From: a virus
Taxonomy: Duplodnaviria > Heunggongvirae > Uroviricota > Caudoviricetes
Strand: one strand, 5' to 3'
IMG/VR virus record: IMGVR_UViG_2563366824_000005
Location: 1 to 43,437 of that record
Length of the DNA: 43,437 bases
Shown here piece by piece: positions 12,500 through 39,069 of this stretch (the stretch's first letter is position 1; the number at the start of each line of letters is the position of its first letter). The position numbers and the translations under genes are program-made. Under the pieces are notes generated by a model. It saw only the letters and a program-made list of their open reading frames with translations, did not search any database and was not told the DNA's origin.

Positions 12500-14131
<1,632 letters not shown>

Positions 14132-28762: not shown

Positions 28763-28796
28763 GGAGTTTACTCACATCTGACAAAATCAATATAAA

Positions 28797-28818
28797 CAGC
28801 CCCTCCGGAGAGGGGCTG
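28797..28818. terminator. strong 9-bp GC hairpin (CAGCCCCTC-CGGA-GAGGGGCTG)
   Basis: perfect inverted repeat; U-rich tract on the minus-strand side only. Confidence 0.45.
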
Positions 28819-29209
28819 GAGAGTGGCGCTATGTGCCATTGCATGGTGCCGGGTGCCTCCCGGTGAATTCAGTACCAGCACCTGAATCCGCGATTATCCC
28901 ATATACCTACTCGCTGATTGCCCCTCCGCACAGGGGGATTCACCATGCCAGTTTCTTTTAACAAACTCCCCGCAAACCAGACAACAGTCAACCGCCTGAA
29001 TTGTGAAGTATTTAAAAATTTCTCCCGCTAACTGATACCCGGCTAACAGTCTGGCGTTTTCTTTTTCAGCAACGGGAAAGCAACAACCACCACACCCGCC
29101 ACCAGCACACCGTCAGCCAGCACTGACATTATCCGGCTGCTGCAATGCCATTCACAAAAACAGTAAGCAATCACTTTTTACCGTAACAGGTGATAATCCA
29201 GATATGTAT

Positions 29210-29673: not shown

Positions 29674-29750
29674 TGGCGCGCTGTACTGGATTCGAACCAG
29701 TGACCGATTGCTTAGAAGGCAATTGCTCTGTCCGGCTGAGCTAACAACGC
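29674..29750 (-). tRNA. tRNA-Arg (anticodon UCU)
   Basis: 77-nt cloverleaf GCGTTGTTAGCTCAGCCGGACAGAGCAATTGCCTTCTAAGCAATCGGTCACTGGTTCGAATCCAGTACAGCGCGCCA with encoded CCA. Confidence 0.85.
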
Positions 29751-29856: not shown

Positions 29857-29932
29857 TGGTGGCCCTTGCTGGATTTGAACCAGCGACCTGGCGATTATGA
29901 GTCGCTCGCTCTCACCACTGAGCTAAAGGACC
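29857..29932 (-). tRNA. tRNA-Ile2 (anticodon CAU, ileX/ileZ-like; would be called tRNA-Met by anticodon alone)
   Basis: 76-nt cloverleaf GGTCCTTTAGCTCAGTGGTGAGAGCGAGCGACTCATAATCGCCAGGTCGCTGGTTCAAATCCAGCAAGGGCCACCA, resembles E. coli ileX. Confidence 0.8.
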
Positions 29933-31280: not shown

Positions 31281-32330
31281 TTACCCAAGCACGCCAGTTG
31301 CAAAGGCGTGATCAAGAAAACGAAAAATTAAATCAACCTGAGAACCATGCTTTTCTTCGAACGCCAGCGGATCCGCATGAAGCTCGTTGTGATGCTCCCG
31401 ACACAGCGGTAGCGTGAAAATATCGTGAGATTTTGTCCCCATTCCGCCCTGACCATGACCAATCAGGTGATGGGGATCGTCGGCTGGCTTACCACAACAC
31501 GCACACGGCTGTGTCTTCACCCAGCGTGTGTATTTCTCGTTAACCCAGCGGCGACGTTTAGGTCGTTTCATGAAAGATTCCGGAGACTCAGGATCAACGG
31601 CAATGCTGACCACCGTCTTTTCCTGTGGTGGGTTCTGTTGCTGGTGGGTGTGAGGCAGCGGCGCAAGATTTTTTGTGCGCTGTTTCAGTATGCTGGTGGC
31701 GGTCTGCTCTCCCGGTACGATGTCGCTTTCACGGTACATTGAGCGGATTTTTTCCGCACGCAACCCCAGCGAACGACGTAATACCGCTTCCGGTAGCGCG
31801 TCCGCCACCTGATTGCGGACCGCCCACCAGGATAATTCAGCCAGAGATAATTCACGCTCCTGCGTACCGCTTATTGCGTGACCGATGACGTCAATCATCC
31901 ATGCTGACAGGTTTTGATGAGCAACTTGCTCGAGTGATTCGGATGTCTGGTCACGCAGCTGGTTGTCGCAGTGCCAGCACAACACCATTGCGCCGGTACC
32001 ATAACGGTGAATGACGGTTTCGCTGTGATGATAATCGCCGTGTGGCCACTGGCAGGATTTAATATGGCGCAACAGCCAGTCAGACAATGCACCAGCACCA
32101 CCAGCAGCACGAATCACCCGTGCGTTACTGAAAAACGGCAGCAATGTTTTGTCTTCCACCAGCGGCTGGCGAGCGGCAGGAACGACCCCGGACGGCAGAT
32201 TACGCATGCTTTTCGGTTCCGGCTCCACCAGTAACCGGGTATTGTGGAATACCGGCATGGATTCACGGCCCGGCTTAACGATCACCAGCCCGAGTTCCGG
32301 TACCAGAACAGGTCGAAGTAATACCCGCAC
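31281..32330 (-). CDS. DUF968 protein (YdfU-like) with C-terminal HNH-like Cys/His motif
   Basis: 349 aa; CACCGKPADDPHHLIGHGQGG...H motif; same position as ydfU in Qin. Confidence 0.65.
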   Translation of the reverse strand: MRVLLRPVLVPELGLVIVKPGRESMPVFHNTRLLVEPEPKSMRNLPSGVVPAARQPLVEDKTLLPFFSNARVIRAAGGAGALSDWLLRHIKSCQWPHGDYHHSETVIHRYGTGAMVLCWHCDNQLRDQTSESLEQVAHQNLSAWMIDVIGHAISGTQERELSLAELSWWAVRNQVADALPEAVLRRSLGLRAEKIRSMYRESDIVPGEQTATSILKQRTKNLAPLPHTHQQQNPPQEKTVVSIAVDPESPESFMKRPKRRRWVNEKYTRWVKTQPCACCGKPADDPHHLIGHGQGGMGTKSHDIFTLPLCREHHNELHADPLAFEEKHGSQVDLIFRFLDHAFATGVLG

Positions 32331-32610: not shown

Positions 32611-33068
32611 CGGTTGTCTCTGCTGGCGCAGCAGGTGCCAGTTGTTCAGGCTGGCGTATAAAGTATAAATAAACTGGTTCCAGTGTAAAGCCCCTACATT
32701 AATGGAATAAAAGTCAAACAACAGATTGTTGGGATAAACACAACGCTTATTATTAAAAGCGATTAGATAAATTAAATTTTAATGTTATGCAATTTTACCA
32801 GATCATCATAACATCTCGTTTGAAACCACCGAAACAACAACCATATCAATATTGATTATGTTAAAGTGAGTAAATATGGAAAACAACAAATCTGCACATT
32901 ACGCTCCTTTTTTATCTGTGATACTTTTTGTTTTATGCTGTGTGTGGGCATTATTTTTATAAAAATATTCACAGATAAAATAAACCCGCCGAAGCGGGTT
33001 AAGTGCGGGTGCATTGAGGATGCCTGACACATCAGAGGTGGCGAGGGATTTCTCCCTCGCCGGGTCTC

Positions 33069-33224
33069 TTACTCCTCAGGTTCGTAAACTGTGAAGACAG
33101 CGACCTCCGTCTGGCCGGTTCGGATTCGTACCTCGCAGAGGTCTTTCCTCGTTACCAGTGCCGTCACTATGACGGTTAAACAGATGACGATCAGGGCGAT
33201 TAACATCGCCTTTTGCTGCTTCAT
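33069..33224 (-). CDS. hokD: Hok-family type I toxin (HokD/RelF-like)
   Basis: 51 aa MKQQKAMLIALIVICLTVIVTALVTRKDLCEVRIRTGQTEVAVFTAYEPEE; AAGGAG SD; below track length cut-off. Confidence 0.85.
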   Translation of the reverse strand: MKQQKAMLIALIVICLTVIVTALVTRKDLCEVRIRTGQTEVAVFTVYEPEE

Positions 33225-33481
33225 AGCCTGCTTCTCCTTGACCTTTCGGTCCGTAAGAGGCTAATCTCTATGTGTCGCATAGATATGGCCTCAGATTAAT
33301 GTTAAACGTCTTGCAGGACGCGTAATGTTACCTGGGGCTTTTCTCTATCTGCCGTTGGTGTTCATGCCCGAGGCAGATAGCCTCAAGCACCCGCAGTCAT
33401 TCTACTTAACTAAGATTTCCCCGCAAACCGTTTTTGTCCAGCACAATAAATATCCAACTAAACCAATGGAGTTCGCTGTAT

Positions 33482-33661
33482 TTACCGCCAGTATTCAATG
33501 CACATGACCGCCATGAACACCCCTAAAAAAAGGGCATTTATATATCCAAATATTAATATCAAAACATCAACTTTTTCCATATACCTTGCTGTGAAGATGA
33601 TGGGCATACATGATACGAACAACCAGAACGCAACAAACAAAAACTGCAATGCGTTTTTCAT
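33482..33661 (-). CDS. hypothetical small two-helix membrane protein (59 aa)
   Basis: strong AGGAGG SD 4 nt before ATG 33661; two hydrophobic helices; AT-rich context. Confidence 0.4.
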   Translation of the reverse strand: MKNALQFLFVAFWLFVSCMPIIFTARYMEKVDVLILIFGYINALFLGVFMAVMCIEYWR

Positions 33662-39011: not shown

Positions 39012-39069
39012 TTTCTGGTGACGTTTGGCGGTATCAGTTTTACTCCGTGACTGCTCTGCCGCCCTTTTT
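39012..39069 (+). ncRNA. dicF: DicF small regulatory RNA with its terminator
   Basis: TTTCTGGTGACGTTTGGCGGTATCAGTTTTACTCCGTGACTGCTCTGCCGCCC followed by TTTTT matches K-12 DicF as recalled. Confidence 0.8.

What the first reader, a model, noticed from the sequence alone, without database searches (positions are those of the whole stretch)
32980..33330. hokD-type toxin gene without the upstream relBE genes
A perfect 51-aa Hok ORF (33069-33224) with AAGGAG SD is present, but no relB/relE-sized ORFs lie upstream as they do in K-12 Qin. The hok mRNA 3' side carries hairpins (GCGAGGGAGAAATCCCTCGCC at about 33036-33056, and AACCCGC-TTCG-GCGGGTT with U-run at about 32989-33007). Regulation is therefore likely by a Sok-like antisense RNA or mok-type coupling.
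Basis: partly seen in the sequence, partly recalled or inferred. Interest (0 to 1): 0.45.

Follow-up and report, generated by a model that had tools for sequence, protein, structure and literature searches.

The report
Intact prophage hok/sok toxin-antitoxin locus
This is a complete copy of the well-known Hok/Sok RNA-controlled toxin-antitoxin module in a Qin-like E. coli prophage; the relBE-linked hokD of K-12 is a truncated form of it, so the finding is real but ordinary.

Summary
The 51-aa Hok ORF (33224..33069, minus strand), its AAGGAG Shine-Dalgarno (SD) sequence and both 3' hairpins are real. relBE is absent from the whole window.

The gene is not an orphan. It sits in a full hok/sok-type cassette of about 420 nt:
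- a hok promoter and a 5' tac element;
- a leader matching Rfam RF01794 (100.8 bits);
- a mok leader ORF with its own GAGG SD;
- an antisense Sok gene (about 33274-33342, plus strand);
- a 3' protective hairpin, an fbi element pairing with the 5' end, and a terminator.

Structure support: the predicted helices are 91-99% canonical across 100 unique homologues, with compensatory changes, and the fold has z = -7.8.

K-12 similarity stops inside the hok SD, so K-12 hokD is the rearranged form. The intact form is commoner: 2589 versus 1165 of 5426 complete E. coli genomes. The closest named system is hokW/mokW/sokW of Stx phage 933W/Sp5 (about 91% identical), which has been tested experimentally.

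One wrinkle: mok here has only 19 codons, and its UGA overlaps the hok AUG (AUGA). This variant is common and intact, and is one of three natural mok frames (56, 57 or 58 nt). It agrees with R1 mutagenesis showing that mok need only be translated up to the hok start.

Verdict: already known, low interest.

The parts
33421..33426 (-). hok promoter, candidate -35 (TTGCGG)
   Evidence: Read from the sequence. It lies 16 nt upstream of the -10. It is weak and was not reported by the consensus scan, so it is inferred from position.
33399..33404 (-). hok promoter -10 (TAGAAT), 6 nt before the G at 33392
   Evidence: A -10-like hexamer (TAGAAT, TAAGAT, TACAAT, TATAAT, TACTAT, TATTAT) sits at the same distance from the conserved GGGUGC 5' end in all relatives aligned.
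32975..33392 (-). full-length hok mRNA (about 418 nt)
   Evidence: The 5' end is set by the first position of the Rfam model and the 3' end by the terminator. MFE -170.1 kcal/mol, z = -7.81, and 0 of 100 shuffles fold as well.
33381..33392 (-). tac element (GGGUGCUUGAGG), mRNA positions 1-12
   Evidence: It pairs with fbi in the full-length MFE fold. The pairing is 95.5% canonical across 100 unique homologues against about 50% when partners are slid, and 4 pairs show compensatory changes. Diversity is 0.014.
33334..33340 (-). ucb box (AGCCCC region), mRNA positions 53-59
   Evidence: It sequesters the mok SD in the full-length fold (helix 55-65/94-105: 90.8% canonical, 4 compensatory pairs). 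It pairs with tac in the 3'-truncated fold.
33289..33292 (-). mok Shine-Dalgarno (GAGG), 8 nt before the mok AUG
   Evidence: Nearly invariant (diversity 0.002). The motif and spacing are the same as in R1 (PMC9841398) and in the R1-type locus L133.
33267..33283 (-). small hairpin containing the mok AUG (mRNA positions 110-126); Sok 5'-tail target; hypervariable
   Evidence: Predicted in the MFE fold. Segment 105-130 is the most variable part of the transcript (diversity 0.27-0.29). The indels that set the mok frame lie in its loop.
33221..33280 (-). mok leader ORF, 19 codons (MRHIEISLLRTERSRRSRL) plus UGA overlapping the hok AUG (AUGA)
   Evidence: The same peptide is found in 96 of 105 complete short-type loci from viral contigs.
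33234..33239 (-). hok Shine-Dalgarno (AAGGAG)
   Evidence: Its 3' half is paired in helix 132-138/157-163 (98% canonical). K-12 similarity begins at 33238.
33069..33224 (-). hok coding sequence (51 codons plus stop)
   Evidence: The AUG region is paired with 292-307 (96% canonical, 2 compensatory pairs).
33083..33086 (-). UACG at Tyr47: candidate TadA A-to-I (Tyr to Cys) recoding site
   Evidence: Read from the sequence. K-12 hokD is edited at the equivalent TACG, at about 6% (PMC5630033, PMC12214031). Editing at this locus is inferred and was not tested.
33040..33061 (-). 3' hairpin (GGCGAGGGA/UCCCUCGCC), mRNA positions 332-353; predicted 3'-end protective hairpin of the processed mRNA
   Evidence: 98.4% canonical with 4 compensatory pairs. 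Its role is inferred from the equivalent R1 stem-loop (PMC9841398).
33007..33019 (-). fbi element (CCUCAAUGCACCC), mRNA positions 374-386
   Evidence: Complementary to tac. Supported by the MFE fold and by covariation.
32974..33000 (-). intrinsic terminator (7-bp stem, UUCG loop, U-rich tail)
   Evidence: Terminator scan. All 7 pairs show compensatory changes among relatives. K-12 similarity ends at 32982.
33238..33243 (+). Sok promoter -35 (TTGACC), overlapping the hok SD on the other strand
   Evidence: Aligned with 933W (TTGCCT) and the R1-type locus (TTGCGC). It is below the threshold of the consensus scan.
33262..33267 (+). Sok promoter -10 (TAATCT)
   Evidence: 933W has TAACCT at the same place, 6 nt before its annotated sokW start.
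33274..33342 (+). Sok antisense RNA (about 69 nt): roughly 13-nt single-stranded 5' tail, long hairpin, U-run
   Evidence: Mapped from the annotated sokW misc_RNA of 933W (94.5% identity over 55 nt). The fold shows a tail followed by a hairpin. It is complementary to the mok SD and mok AUG. Its expression was not tested.

Best explanation
The region 32975-33426 is an intact hok/sok-family type I toxin-antitoxin cassette in the early-right (nin-like) region of a Qin-like lambdoid prophage. It is the un-rearranged counterpart of K-12 hokD.

Proposed mechanism (architecture shown here, activity inferred from R1 and 933W/Sp5):
1. A weak promoter makes a 418-nt hok mRNA. Its 5' tac element pairs with the 3' fbi element. 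This locks the mok SD against the upstream ucb box, so the RNA is translationally inert.
2. Slow 3' trimming back to the GGCGAGGGA hairpin removes fbi. tac then re-pairs with ucb and the mok initiation region is remodelled.
3. In that state the 69-nt antisense Sok RNA, which is constitutively made and unstable, pairs across the mok SD and AUG. This blocks mok translation and triggers cleavage of the duplex.
4. If Sok is depleted, ribosomes translate the 19-codon mok ORF and melt the helices that hold the hok SD and AUG. They terminate at the UGA of AUGA and start Hok synthesis by coupling or reinitiation.
5. Hok inserts into the inner membrane and depolarises or lyses the cell.

The likely benefit to the prophage is retention, assisted lysis on induction, or exclusion of other phages.
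For: Identity:
- Pfam HOK_GEF 78.6 bits; PHROG 251.
- Rfam RF01794 100.8 bits against a gathering score of 59, full length, ending on the hok AUG.

Architecture matches the archetype. In the window and in an R1-type plasmid locus the mRNA positions are: mok SD 101 vs 100, mok AUG 113 vs 112, hok AUG 169 vs 169.

Closest relative: about 91% DNA identity to hokW/mokW/sokW of 933W, which carries an annotated 71-nt sokW. The Sok promoter and start-site geometry are conserved.

RNA structure:
- z = -7.81.
- tac/fbi closure appears in the MFE fold.
- Across 100 unique homologues the helices are 91-99% canonical, against 18-56% for slid partners in most helices (52-65% for the 3' hairpin), with compensatory pairs in the tac/fbi helix (4), the mok-SD helix (4), the hok-AUG helix (2), the 3' hairpin (4) and the terminator (7).
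- Truncation at positions 353-361 switches tac to ucb and the mok SD to a downstream box, as in the R1 model (PMC9841398).

Short mok:
- R1 also has 19 mok codons before the hok start. Stops upstream of that point abolish toxicity, and stops beyond it do not (PMC9841398).
- The 56-nt type gives at least 119 hits in viral contigs.
- In those loci tac is present in 105 of 105 and a 51-codon hok is intact in 98 of 105.
- hok pN/pS is 0.55, against 0.39 and 0.50 for the other mok types.
- The type arose in several lineages, including Erwinia and non-coli Escherichia.

Function of relatives:
- hokW-sokW is a working type I TA that depends partly on RNase III and Hfq, and it doubles Sp5 release after mitomycin C (PMC8621323).
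- HokD peptide is toxic when expressed (10.1101/2025.08.07.668861).
Against: - Nothing at this locus has been measured. Neither Sok nor hok transcripts, processing, coupling or toxicity was tested.
- Both promoters are weak. The consensus promoter scan found neither, so they rest on positional homology.
- In the predicted truncated fold the mok SD is still paired with the downstream box, so thermodynamics alone does not show SD exposure.
- A stop exactly overlapping the hok AUG has not, to my knowledge, been tested in R1.
- Disrupted hok ORFs are slightly commoner in the short-mok group (7 of 105, against 1 of 108 and 1 of 51).
- Chromosomal hokA, hokB and hokC loci failed to give post-segregational killing in earlier work, as summarised in 10.1101/2025.08.07.668861.
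- The NCBIfam Hok HMMs score below their curated cut-offs (45.1 bits against 73).
Confidence: 0.85

Rival explanations
1. The cassette is a silent remnant. The 2-nt deletion after the mok AUG truncates mok to 19 codons and uncouples hok from translation, so Hok is never made.
For: - mok has 19 codons here, against 70 in 933W, 68 in phage Rac and 70 in R1 (PMC9841398).
- Disrupted hok ORFs are somewhat commoner in the short-mok group (7 of 105).
- K-12 chromosomal hok loci are generally regarded as inactivated (PMC12214031).
Against: - The stop lies at the hok AUG, not upstream of the hok SD. In R1 only stops upstream of the hok start abolish toxicity (PMC9841398).
- An AUGA overlap is a classical coupling arrangement (general knowledge).
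- The variant is abundant: at least 119 viral contigs, and up to 777 E. coli records carry the exact leader.
- It has diversified into 60 unique sequences while keeping tac, both SDs, the mok AUG and hok.
- pN/pS is below 1 and similar to the other mok types.
- The same architecture recurs in distant genera.
Confidence: 0.07
2. Hok expression here is driven mainly by read-through from the prophage early-right operon, which is on the same strand, as hokD is co-transcribed with relBE in K-12. On this view the Sok/mok circuit is secondary. On induction, long transcripts lacking a proper tac 5' end would escape fold-back inhibition and collide with Sok transcription.
For: - hok lies on the same strand as the flanking early and nin-type genes and the Q antiterminator.
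- No terminator-like site was found between the upstream ORFs and hok in 32800-33600.
- HokW rises and sokW falls after mitomycin C in a RecA-dependent way in Sp5 (PMC8621323).
Against: - The locus keeps its own conserved -10 element, its 5' end and all the fold-back elements under strong constraint. That would be unnecessary if its own promoter were irrelevant.
- In Sp5/933W the locus sits at the far end of the phage genome in a different transcriptional context, yet responds to induction.
- The two mechanisms are not mutually exclusive.
Confidence: 0.08

Closest known systems
hokW / mokW / sokW of Stx2 phage 933W and Sakai prophage Sp5 (AF125520; PMC8621323)
   Same: About 91% DNA identity over the whole cassette. 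Same order of elements, same Sok promoter and start-site geometry, and the Sok hairpin is 94.5% identical. Both are carried by lambdoid phages. Hok differs only in the C-terminal tail.
   Different: mokW is the in-frame 57-nt type: 70 codons, ending at the same stop as hokW. Here mok has 19 codons and ends on the hok AUG. In 933W the locus lies at the far right end beyond the tail genes; here it lies between the replication/nin-type genes and DUF968-RusA-Q. The hairpin containing the mok AUG differs in sequence.
hok/sok (parB) of plasmid R1, the archetype
   Same: Element-by-element geometry matches: tac at the 5' end, GAGG mok SD about 100 nt in with 8-nt spacing, 19 mok codons before hok, hok AUG about 169 nt in, a 3' hairpin, fbi and a terminator. 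tac/fbi closure and the tac/ucb switch are both predicted (PMC9841398).
   Different: The Hok protein is visibly divergent from R1 Hok (compare the two sequences; identity was not computed). R1 mok is the long out-of-frame 58-nt type. The Sok hairpin here carries a 16-nt insertion relative to the Rfam consensus. R1 is plasmid-borne, with proven post-segregational killing.
hokD (relF) of the E. coli K-12 Qin prophage, in the relB-relE-hokD operon
   Same: 98.4% DNA identity from the hok SD through hok, the 3' hairpin and fbi to the terminator (window 32982-33238). Hok differs by A46V. The prophage neighbourhood is the same: DUF968/ydfU, the Q antiterminator and the dicB-ydfABC side.
   Different: K-12 lacks everything upstream of the SD: promoter, tac, ucb, mok and Sok. 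There is no Rfam leader hit in L002, and relE-relB sit there instead. K-12 also has rem downstream, which is absent here.
hokC (gef)/mokC/sokC and other chromosomal hok loci
   Same: Same leader family, with RF01794 hits of 112-118 bits. The same three-way mok spacing variation occurs: 56 nt in E. ruysiae and E. whittamii, and 57 nt in E. coli.
   Different: A different Hok subtype (about 80% identity). The Sok hairpin is shorter and lacks the 16-nt loop insertion. These loci are at a core-chromosome position, not in a prophage.

Membership tests
Hok/Gef toxin family (Pfam PF01848) | Protein matches the family HMM above the curated gathering score | tested here: met
   78.6 bits against a cut-off of 22, E 2.6e-22, full profile 1-42. 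PHROG 251 E 2.8e-32.
Hok/Gef toxin family (NCBIfam HMMs NF007279 and NF007290) | Score above NCBI's curated cut-off | tested here: not met
   45.1 bits against 73, and 38.1 bits against 89. RefSeq nevertheless names the identical protein WP_000813256.1 'toxin HokD', presumably by another rule.
[quoted passage not shown] | Conserved structured hok mRNA leader directly upstream of hok | tested here: met
   RF01794 at 100.8 bits against a gathering score of 59, model positions 1-157 of 157, ending on the hok AUG. The Rfam family named 'sok' matches in the hok-sense orientation; the Sok RNA itself is antisense within the matched stretch.
[quoted passage not shown] | Long-range 5' tac / 3' fbi pairing that closes the full-length mRNA | tested here: met
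   Present in the MFE fold. 95.5% canonical in 100 unique homologues against about 50% for slid partners, with 4 compensatory pairs.
[quoted passage not shown] | Refolding after 3' truncation (tac to ucb; mok SD to a downstream box) | tested here: met
   In silico only. The MFE folds of RNAs ending at positions 353, 356 and 361 show tac 1-8 paired with 53-59 and the mok SD paired with 134-136. Actual processing was not testable.
[quoted passage not shown] | mok leader ORF with its own SD, translated at least up to the hok initiation region | tested here: met
   GAGG, 8 nt, AUG, then 19 codons ending in UGA overlapping the hok AUG. It is shorter than classical mok (68-70 codons), but it covers the segment required in R1 (PMC9841398). 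Coupling itself was not testable.
[quoted passage not shown] | Cis-encoded antisense Sok RNA gene with a promoter and terminator, complementary to the mok initiation region | tested here: inconclusive
   It maps onto the annotated sokW (94.5% identity) with conserved -35/-10/start spacing, a tail-plus-hairpin fold and a U-run. The promoter is too weak for the consensus scan, and expression could not be tested.
[quoted passage not shown] | Toxicity of Hok and neutralisation by Sok | not testable with these tools
   Relatives only: HokW/sokW (PMC8621323) and HokD peptide toxicity (10.1101/2025.08.07.668861).
K-12-type relB-relE-hokD (relBEF) operon | relE and relB immediately upstream of hokD, replacing the hok leader | tested here: not met
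   tblastn of K-12 RelE and RelB against the whole window gives best E 3.6 and 1.0. Similarity to K-12 stops at 33238.

The most novel reading that the evidence does not exclude
The mok reading frame is a by-product. What actually varies is a hypervariable hairpin (mRNA positions 105-130, window 33263-33288) that holds the mok AUG and faces the 5' tail and start site of Sok. Indels of 1-2 nt in its loop switch mok between three states: a 19-codon peptide ending in AUGA, an in-frame Mok-Hok extension, and a long out-of-frame protein. All three are common in nature. This hairpin could act as a specificity determinant that keeps the several co-resident hok/sok copies of one genome from cross-silencing. 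The three mok states could also set different Hok outputs, or in the in-frame state an N-terminally extended Hok.
Probability: 0.3. Interest if true: 0.4.

Novelty: already known. Interest (0 to 1): 0.18.

Why it matters
Mostly as a correction of perspective. The textbook K-12 hokD, attached to relBE and lacking mok and sok, is the derived and rarer state. The complete hok/sok cassette occurs in about half of complete E. coli genomes, yet it is annotated only as a bare 'hokD' CDS with no mok or Sok feature.

The naturally occurring 19-codon mok, together with the 56/57/58-nt series, works as a ready-made natural mutagenesis. It agrees with the R1 conclusion that only translation up to the hok start matters. 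It also gives a simple set of alleles for testing coupling mechanisms and Sok specificity.

Tried and rejected
- The consensus promoter scan found neither the hok nor the Sok promoter. Both rest on positional homology with 933W and R1-type loci.
- My first mok survey ignored frame 0 and wrongly suggested that many loci had no mok. The leader alignment showed that they carry the in-frame 57-nt type.
- My first three viral pattern scans were mis-specified by one N. They tested spacings of 57, 58 and 59 nt rather than 56, 57 and 58. The 56-nt scan was then run separately.
- The NCBIfam Hok models scored below their cut-offs.
- Pfam, PHROG and NCBIfam gave nothing for the two small hydrophobic ORFs flanking the cassette.
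- tblastn for Rem was negative, so the K-12 rem gene is not present downstream.
- pN/pS across mok types is crude. It counts distinct polymorphic sites, ignores phylogeny, and overlapping RNA-structure constraints also act on the same sequence.
- I considered testing whether co-resident copies avoid identical variable hairpins. I dropped it because prophage lineage and superinfection immunity confound the test. Only an anecdote is available: the three or four copies in each of two genomes all differ.
- Literature searches found no description of the short-mok variant. The 2026 Hok survey preprint states that Mok was not analysed. Pedersen & Gerdes 1999 and the 'hok mRNA family' paper were not in the searchable library, so prior description cannot be excluded.

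Full report
**Observation.** The minus strand of 33224..33069 encodes a 51-aa protein.
- It matches Pfam HOK_GEF (78.6 bits, cut-off 22) and PHROG 251 'MokW-like host killing'.
- It differs from K-12 HokD only at A46V.
- AAGGAG lies at 33239..33234, 9 nt before the AUG.
GGCGAGGGA/UCCCUCGCC is at 33061..33040. AACCCGC-UUCG-GCGGGUU with a U-rich tail is at 33000..32983, and it is the only terminator-like site found in 32800-33600.
- tblastn with K-12 RelE and RelB finds nothing in the 43-kb window (best E 3.6 and 1.0). In K-12, relE-relB abut hokD.

**What is upstream instead.** Rfam's hok/sok leader model RF01794 matches 33392..33222 on the hok strand at 100.8 bits (gathering score 59, E 7.8e-22). 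The match covers the full model and ends on the hok AUG. The family is named 'sok', but the match is in the hok-sense orientation, and the Sok RNA is antisense within it.

Elements on the hok mRNA, where mRNA position p corresponds to window coordinate 33392-p+1:

| Element | mRNA position | Window |
|---|---|---|
| tac GGGUGCUUGAGG | 1-12 | 33392..33381 |
| ucb (AGCCCC) | 53-59 | 33340..33334 |
| mok SD GAGG | 101-104 | 33292..33289 |
| mok AUG | 113-115 | 33280..33278 |
| hok SD AAGGAG | 154-159 | 33239..33234 |
| hok AUG | 169-171 | 33224..33222 |
| hok stop | 322-324 | 33071..33069 |
| 3' hairpin | 332-353 | 33061..33040 |
| fbi CCUCAAUGCACCC | 374-386 | 33019..33007 |
| terminator stem-loop | 393-410 | 33000..32983 |

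A -10-like hexamer (TAGAAT, 33404..33399) lies 6 nt before the 5' G. It is conserved in position in all relatives.

On the plus strand, TTGACC (33238-33243) and TAATCT (33262-33267) precede a predicted 69-nt Sok RNA (33274-33342). It has a single-stranded 5' tail, a long hairpin and a U-run. The hairpin part (nt 17-71) of the sokW misc_RNA annotated in phage 933W aligns to the window at 94.5% identity. The spacing between the -10 and the start site is the same.

**Relation to K-12.** Similarity to K-12 Qin covers only window 32982-33238 (98.4%). It starts inside the hok SD and ends at the terminator. K-12 therefore keeps hok, the 3' hairpin, fbi and the terminator. It has lost the promoter, tac, ucb, mok and Sok, and has no RF01794 hit. 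The wider neighbourhood is shared: DUF968/ydfU, the Q antiterminator, dicB-ydfABC and DicF. The window is thus a Qin-like lambdoid prophage carrying the un-rearranged locus.

This agrees with the published view that K-12 hokD was inactivated by genomic rearrangement (PMC12214031). Among 5426 complete E. coli genomes, 2589 hold at least 80% of the intact 541-nt region. Only 1165 hold the relE-hokD junction.

**Closest named system.**
- hokW/mokW/sokW of Stx2 phage 933W and VT2-Sakai/Sp5 is about 91% identical across the cassette.
- It is a working type I TA. sokW activity partly needs RNase III and Hfq. Mitomycin C lowers sokW and raises HokW in a RecA-dependent way. Deleting the locus halves Sp5 release (PMC8621323).
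- An R1-type plasmid locus whose Hok is identical to R1 Hok has the same geometry as the window. The mRNA positions (window vs R1-type) are mok SD 101 vs 100, mok AUG 113 vs 112 and hok AUG 169 vs 169.

**RNA structure.** The 418-nt transcript folds at -170.1 kcal/mol with z = -7.81, and none of 100 shuffles folds as well. The MFE fold closes tac on fbi. I projected the window's helices onto an alignment of 100 unique homologous transcripts from E. coli, other Escherichia, Kluyvera, Citrobacter, Photorhabdus, Pantoea, Erwinia and viral contigs:

| Helix | Canonical pairs | Slid-partner controls | Compensatory pairs |
|---|---|---|---|
| tac/fbi | 95.5% | 46-52% | 4 |
| mok-SD/ucb | 90.8% | 18-48% | 4 |
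| hok SD | 98.1% | 51% | 0 |
| hok AUG | 96.3% | 35-43% | 2 |
| 3' hairpin | 98.4% | 52-65% | 4 |
| terminator | 78.5% | 49-53% | 7 |

Folding RNAs truncated at positions 353-361 moves tac onto ucb and the mok SD onto a downstream box. This is the switch described for R1 (PMC9841398). The mok SD remains paired in that prediction, so its exposure is inferred and not shown.

**The mok question.** Here mok is MRHIEISLLRTERSRRSRL, 19 codons long. Its UGA overlaps the hok AUG as AUGA. Aligning leaders shows that the GAGG SD and the mok AUG are fixed. Indels of 1-2 nt just after the AUG set the distance from the mok AUG to the hok AUG at 56, 57 or 58 nt:
- 56 nt gives the 19-codon ORF seen here.
- 57 nt gives an in-frame N-terminal extension of Hok, as annotated for mokW.
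- 58 nt gives the long out-of-frame mok of R1 and phage Rac (PMC9841398).

Exact-spacing scans of viral contigs gave at least 119 hits (56 nt, capped), at least 120 (57 nt, capped), 53 (58 nt) and 0 (59 nt).

The 56-nt group shows no sign of decay:
- 105 complete loci give 60 unique sequences.
- tac is present in all 105.
- A 51-codon hok is intact in 98.
- hok pN/pS is 0.55, against 0.39 and 0.50 for the other types.

The 56-nt architecture also occurs in hokC-type loci of E. ruysiae and E. whittamii and in Erwinia and Kalamiella. Up to 777 E. coli records carry this exact leader.

In R1 there are also 19 mok codons before the hok start. Stops upstream of that point abolish toxicity, and stops beyond it do not (PMC9841398). 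I therefore rate 'mok disrupted, hok silent' as unlikely (0.07).

**Mechanism.**
- Shown here: all sequence elements, their geometry, conservation and covariation, and the predicted alternative folds.
- Inferred from R1 and 933W/Sp5: transcription from the two promoters, 3' processing, Sok binding and RNase III cleavage, mok-to-hok coupling by termination-reinitiation at AUGA, and membrane damage by Hok.
- Open: the biological role. The options are prophage retention, help with lysis on induction as in Sp5, and exclusion of other phages.
- The cassette lies on the same strand as the early-right genes, so read-through on induction may contribute (a rival explanation, not exclusive).

**Additional points.**
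- Tyr47 is encoded by UAC within UACG (33086..33083). This is the TadA motif at which K-12 hokD mRNA is edited to Cys at about 6% (PMC5630033, PMC12214031).
- The most variable stretch of the transcript is positions 105-130, the hairpin holding the mok AUG and facing Sok's 5' tail. Its diversity is 0.27-0.29, against 0.02 or less for tac, ucb and both SDs, and 0.04 for the hok CDS. The mok frame changes look like a side effect of this RNA-level variation.

**Novelty and score.**
- The locus type has been annotated since the 933W genome, is tested experimentally in Sp5, is detected by Rfam and is named hokD by RefSeq. I rate it already known.
- The only modestly new point is the prevalence of the 19-codon mok and the 56/57/58-nt series. 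The latest Hok survey explicitly left Mok unanalysed (10.1101/2025.08.07.668861). Older papers outside the searchable library may already cover it.
- Interest 0.18.

Noticed in passing
window 33263-33288 (minus strand; hok mRNA positions 105-130): This is the most variable segment of the whole hok transcript among 190 unique relatives (diversity 0.27-0.29). It is the hairpin containing the mok AUG and codons 2-6, and it lies opposite Sok's 5' tail and start site. Co-resident copies in E. coli ECMA0423 and S. flexneri SFBU1023 all carry different versions. It may be a Sok/target specificity determinant.
   Followed up: partly
window 33083-33086 (minus strand): Tyr47 of Hok is encoded by UAC inside UACG, the TadA A-to-I editing motif. 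K-12 hokD is edited there (Tyr to Cys, about 6%; PMC5630033, PMC12214031). The neighbouring residue is V46 here, not A46 as in K-12.
   Followed up: partly
window 32876-32962 (plus strand): A 28-aa hydrophobic ORF (MENNKSAHYAPFLSVILFVLCCVWALFL) converges on the hok terminator. It lies in a roughly 260-nt stretch absent from K-12. It has no Pfam, PHROG or NCBIfam match, and it is not annotated in the identical RefSeq region.
   Followed up: partly
window 33482-33658 (minus strand; the ORF extends to 33700 from an upstream GTG): A small, strongly hydrophobic ORF of 58 aa with a strong AGGAGG SD lies just upstream of the hok promoter on the same strand. It has no family match and is unannotated in the identical RefSeq record.
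   Followed up: partly
window 13567-13689 (-), 28788-28977 (-), 29677-29750 and 29860-29932 (-), 39013-39064 (+): Other RNA genes in the prophage: isrC (150 bits), STnc100 (132 bits), two tRNAs (Ile and Arg by comparison with the RefSeq record), and DicF (76.7 bits).
   Followed up: no
L001 2213-5391 compared with window 31281-32330: In strain WP8-S18-ESBL-07 the 541-nt hok region searched is 100% identical to the window, but the strain has an IS21-family element (ISEc62, istAB) inserted in the DUF968 gene. The gene is intact (349 aa) in the window.
   Followed up: no
L026 (Kluyvera sp. CHPC 1.2972), upstream of hok at 1501: A relE-hok junction like that of K-12 also occurs in Kluyvera, next to a divergent Hok (68% identity). 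The relBE-hok rearrangement is therefore not confined to E. coli K-12-like Qin prophages.
   Followed up: no
L044 (Erwinia sp. CGal63) 1050-1440: Three CRISPR-DR4 repeats (1050-1197) lie immediately upstream of a hok/sok leader (1292-1440, 133 bits), so a hok/sok locus abuts a CRISPR array.
   Followed up: no
L133 (IncFII plasmid pMTY1886) 283-780: A plasmid locus encoding a Hok 100% identical to R1 Hok has the in-frame 57-nt mok (71 codons). Published R1 coordinates give 58 nt, so the mok frame also varies among R1-type plasmid loci (PMC9841398).
   Followed up: no
E. coli plasmid records (H23 NZ_CP087567.1, H25 NZ_AP027628.1, H41 NZ_CP062890.1): hokD-type loci with leaders also occur on plasmids of about 90-126 kb: 515 plasmid places for the 541-nt query and 398 for the 86-nt leader query. 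These may be phage-plasmids.
   Followed up: no
L018 (Acinetobacter idrijaensis, 275-nt contig), L023 (Xanthomonas pisi, 431-nt contig), H45 (Actinobacillus phage vB_Apl-pPE4): E. coli-type hokD sequences (93-100% identical) turn up in tiny contigs of unrelated genera and in a phage record assigned to Actinobacillus. Assembly contamination or host mis-assignment is the likely cause.
   Followed up: no
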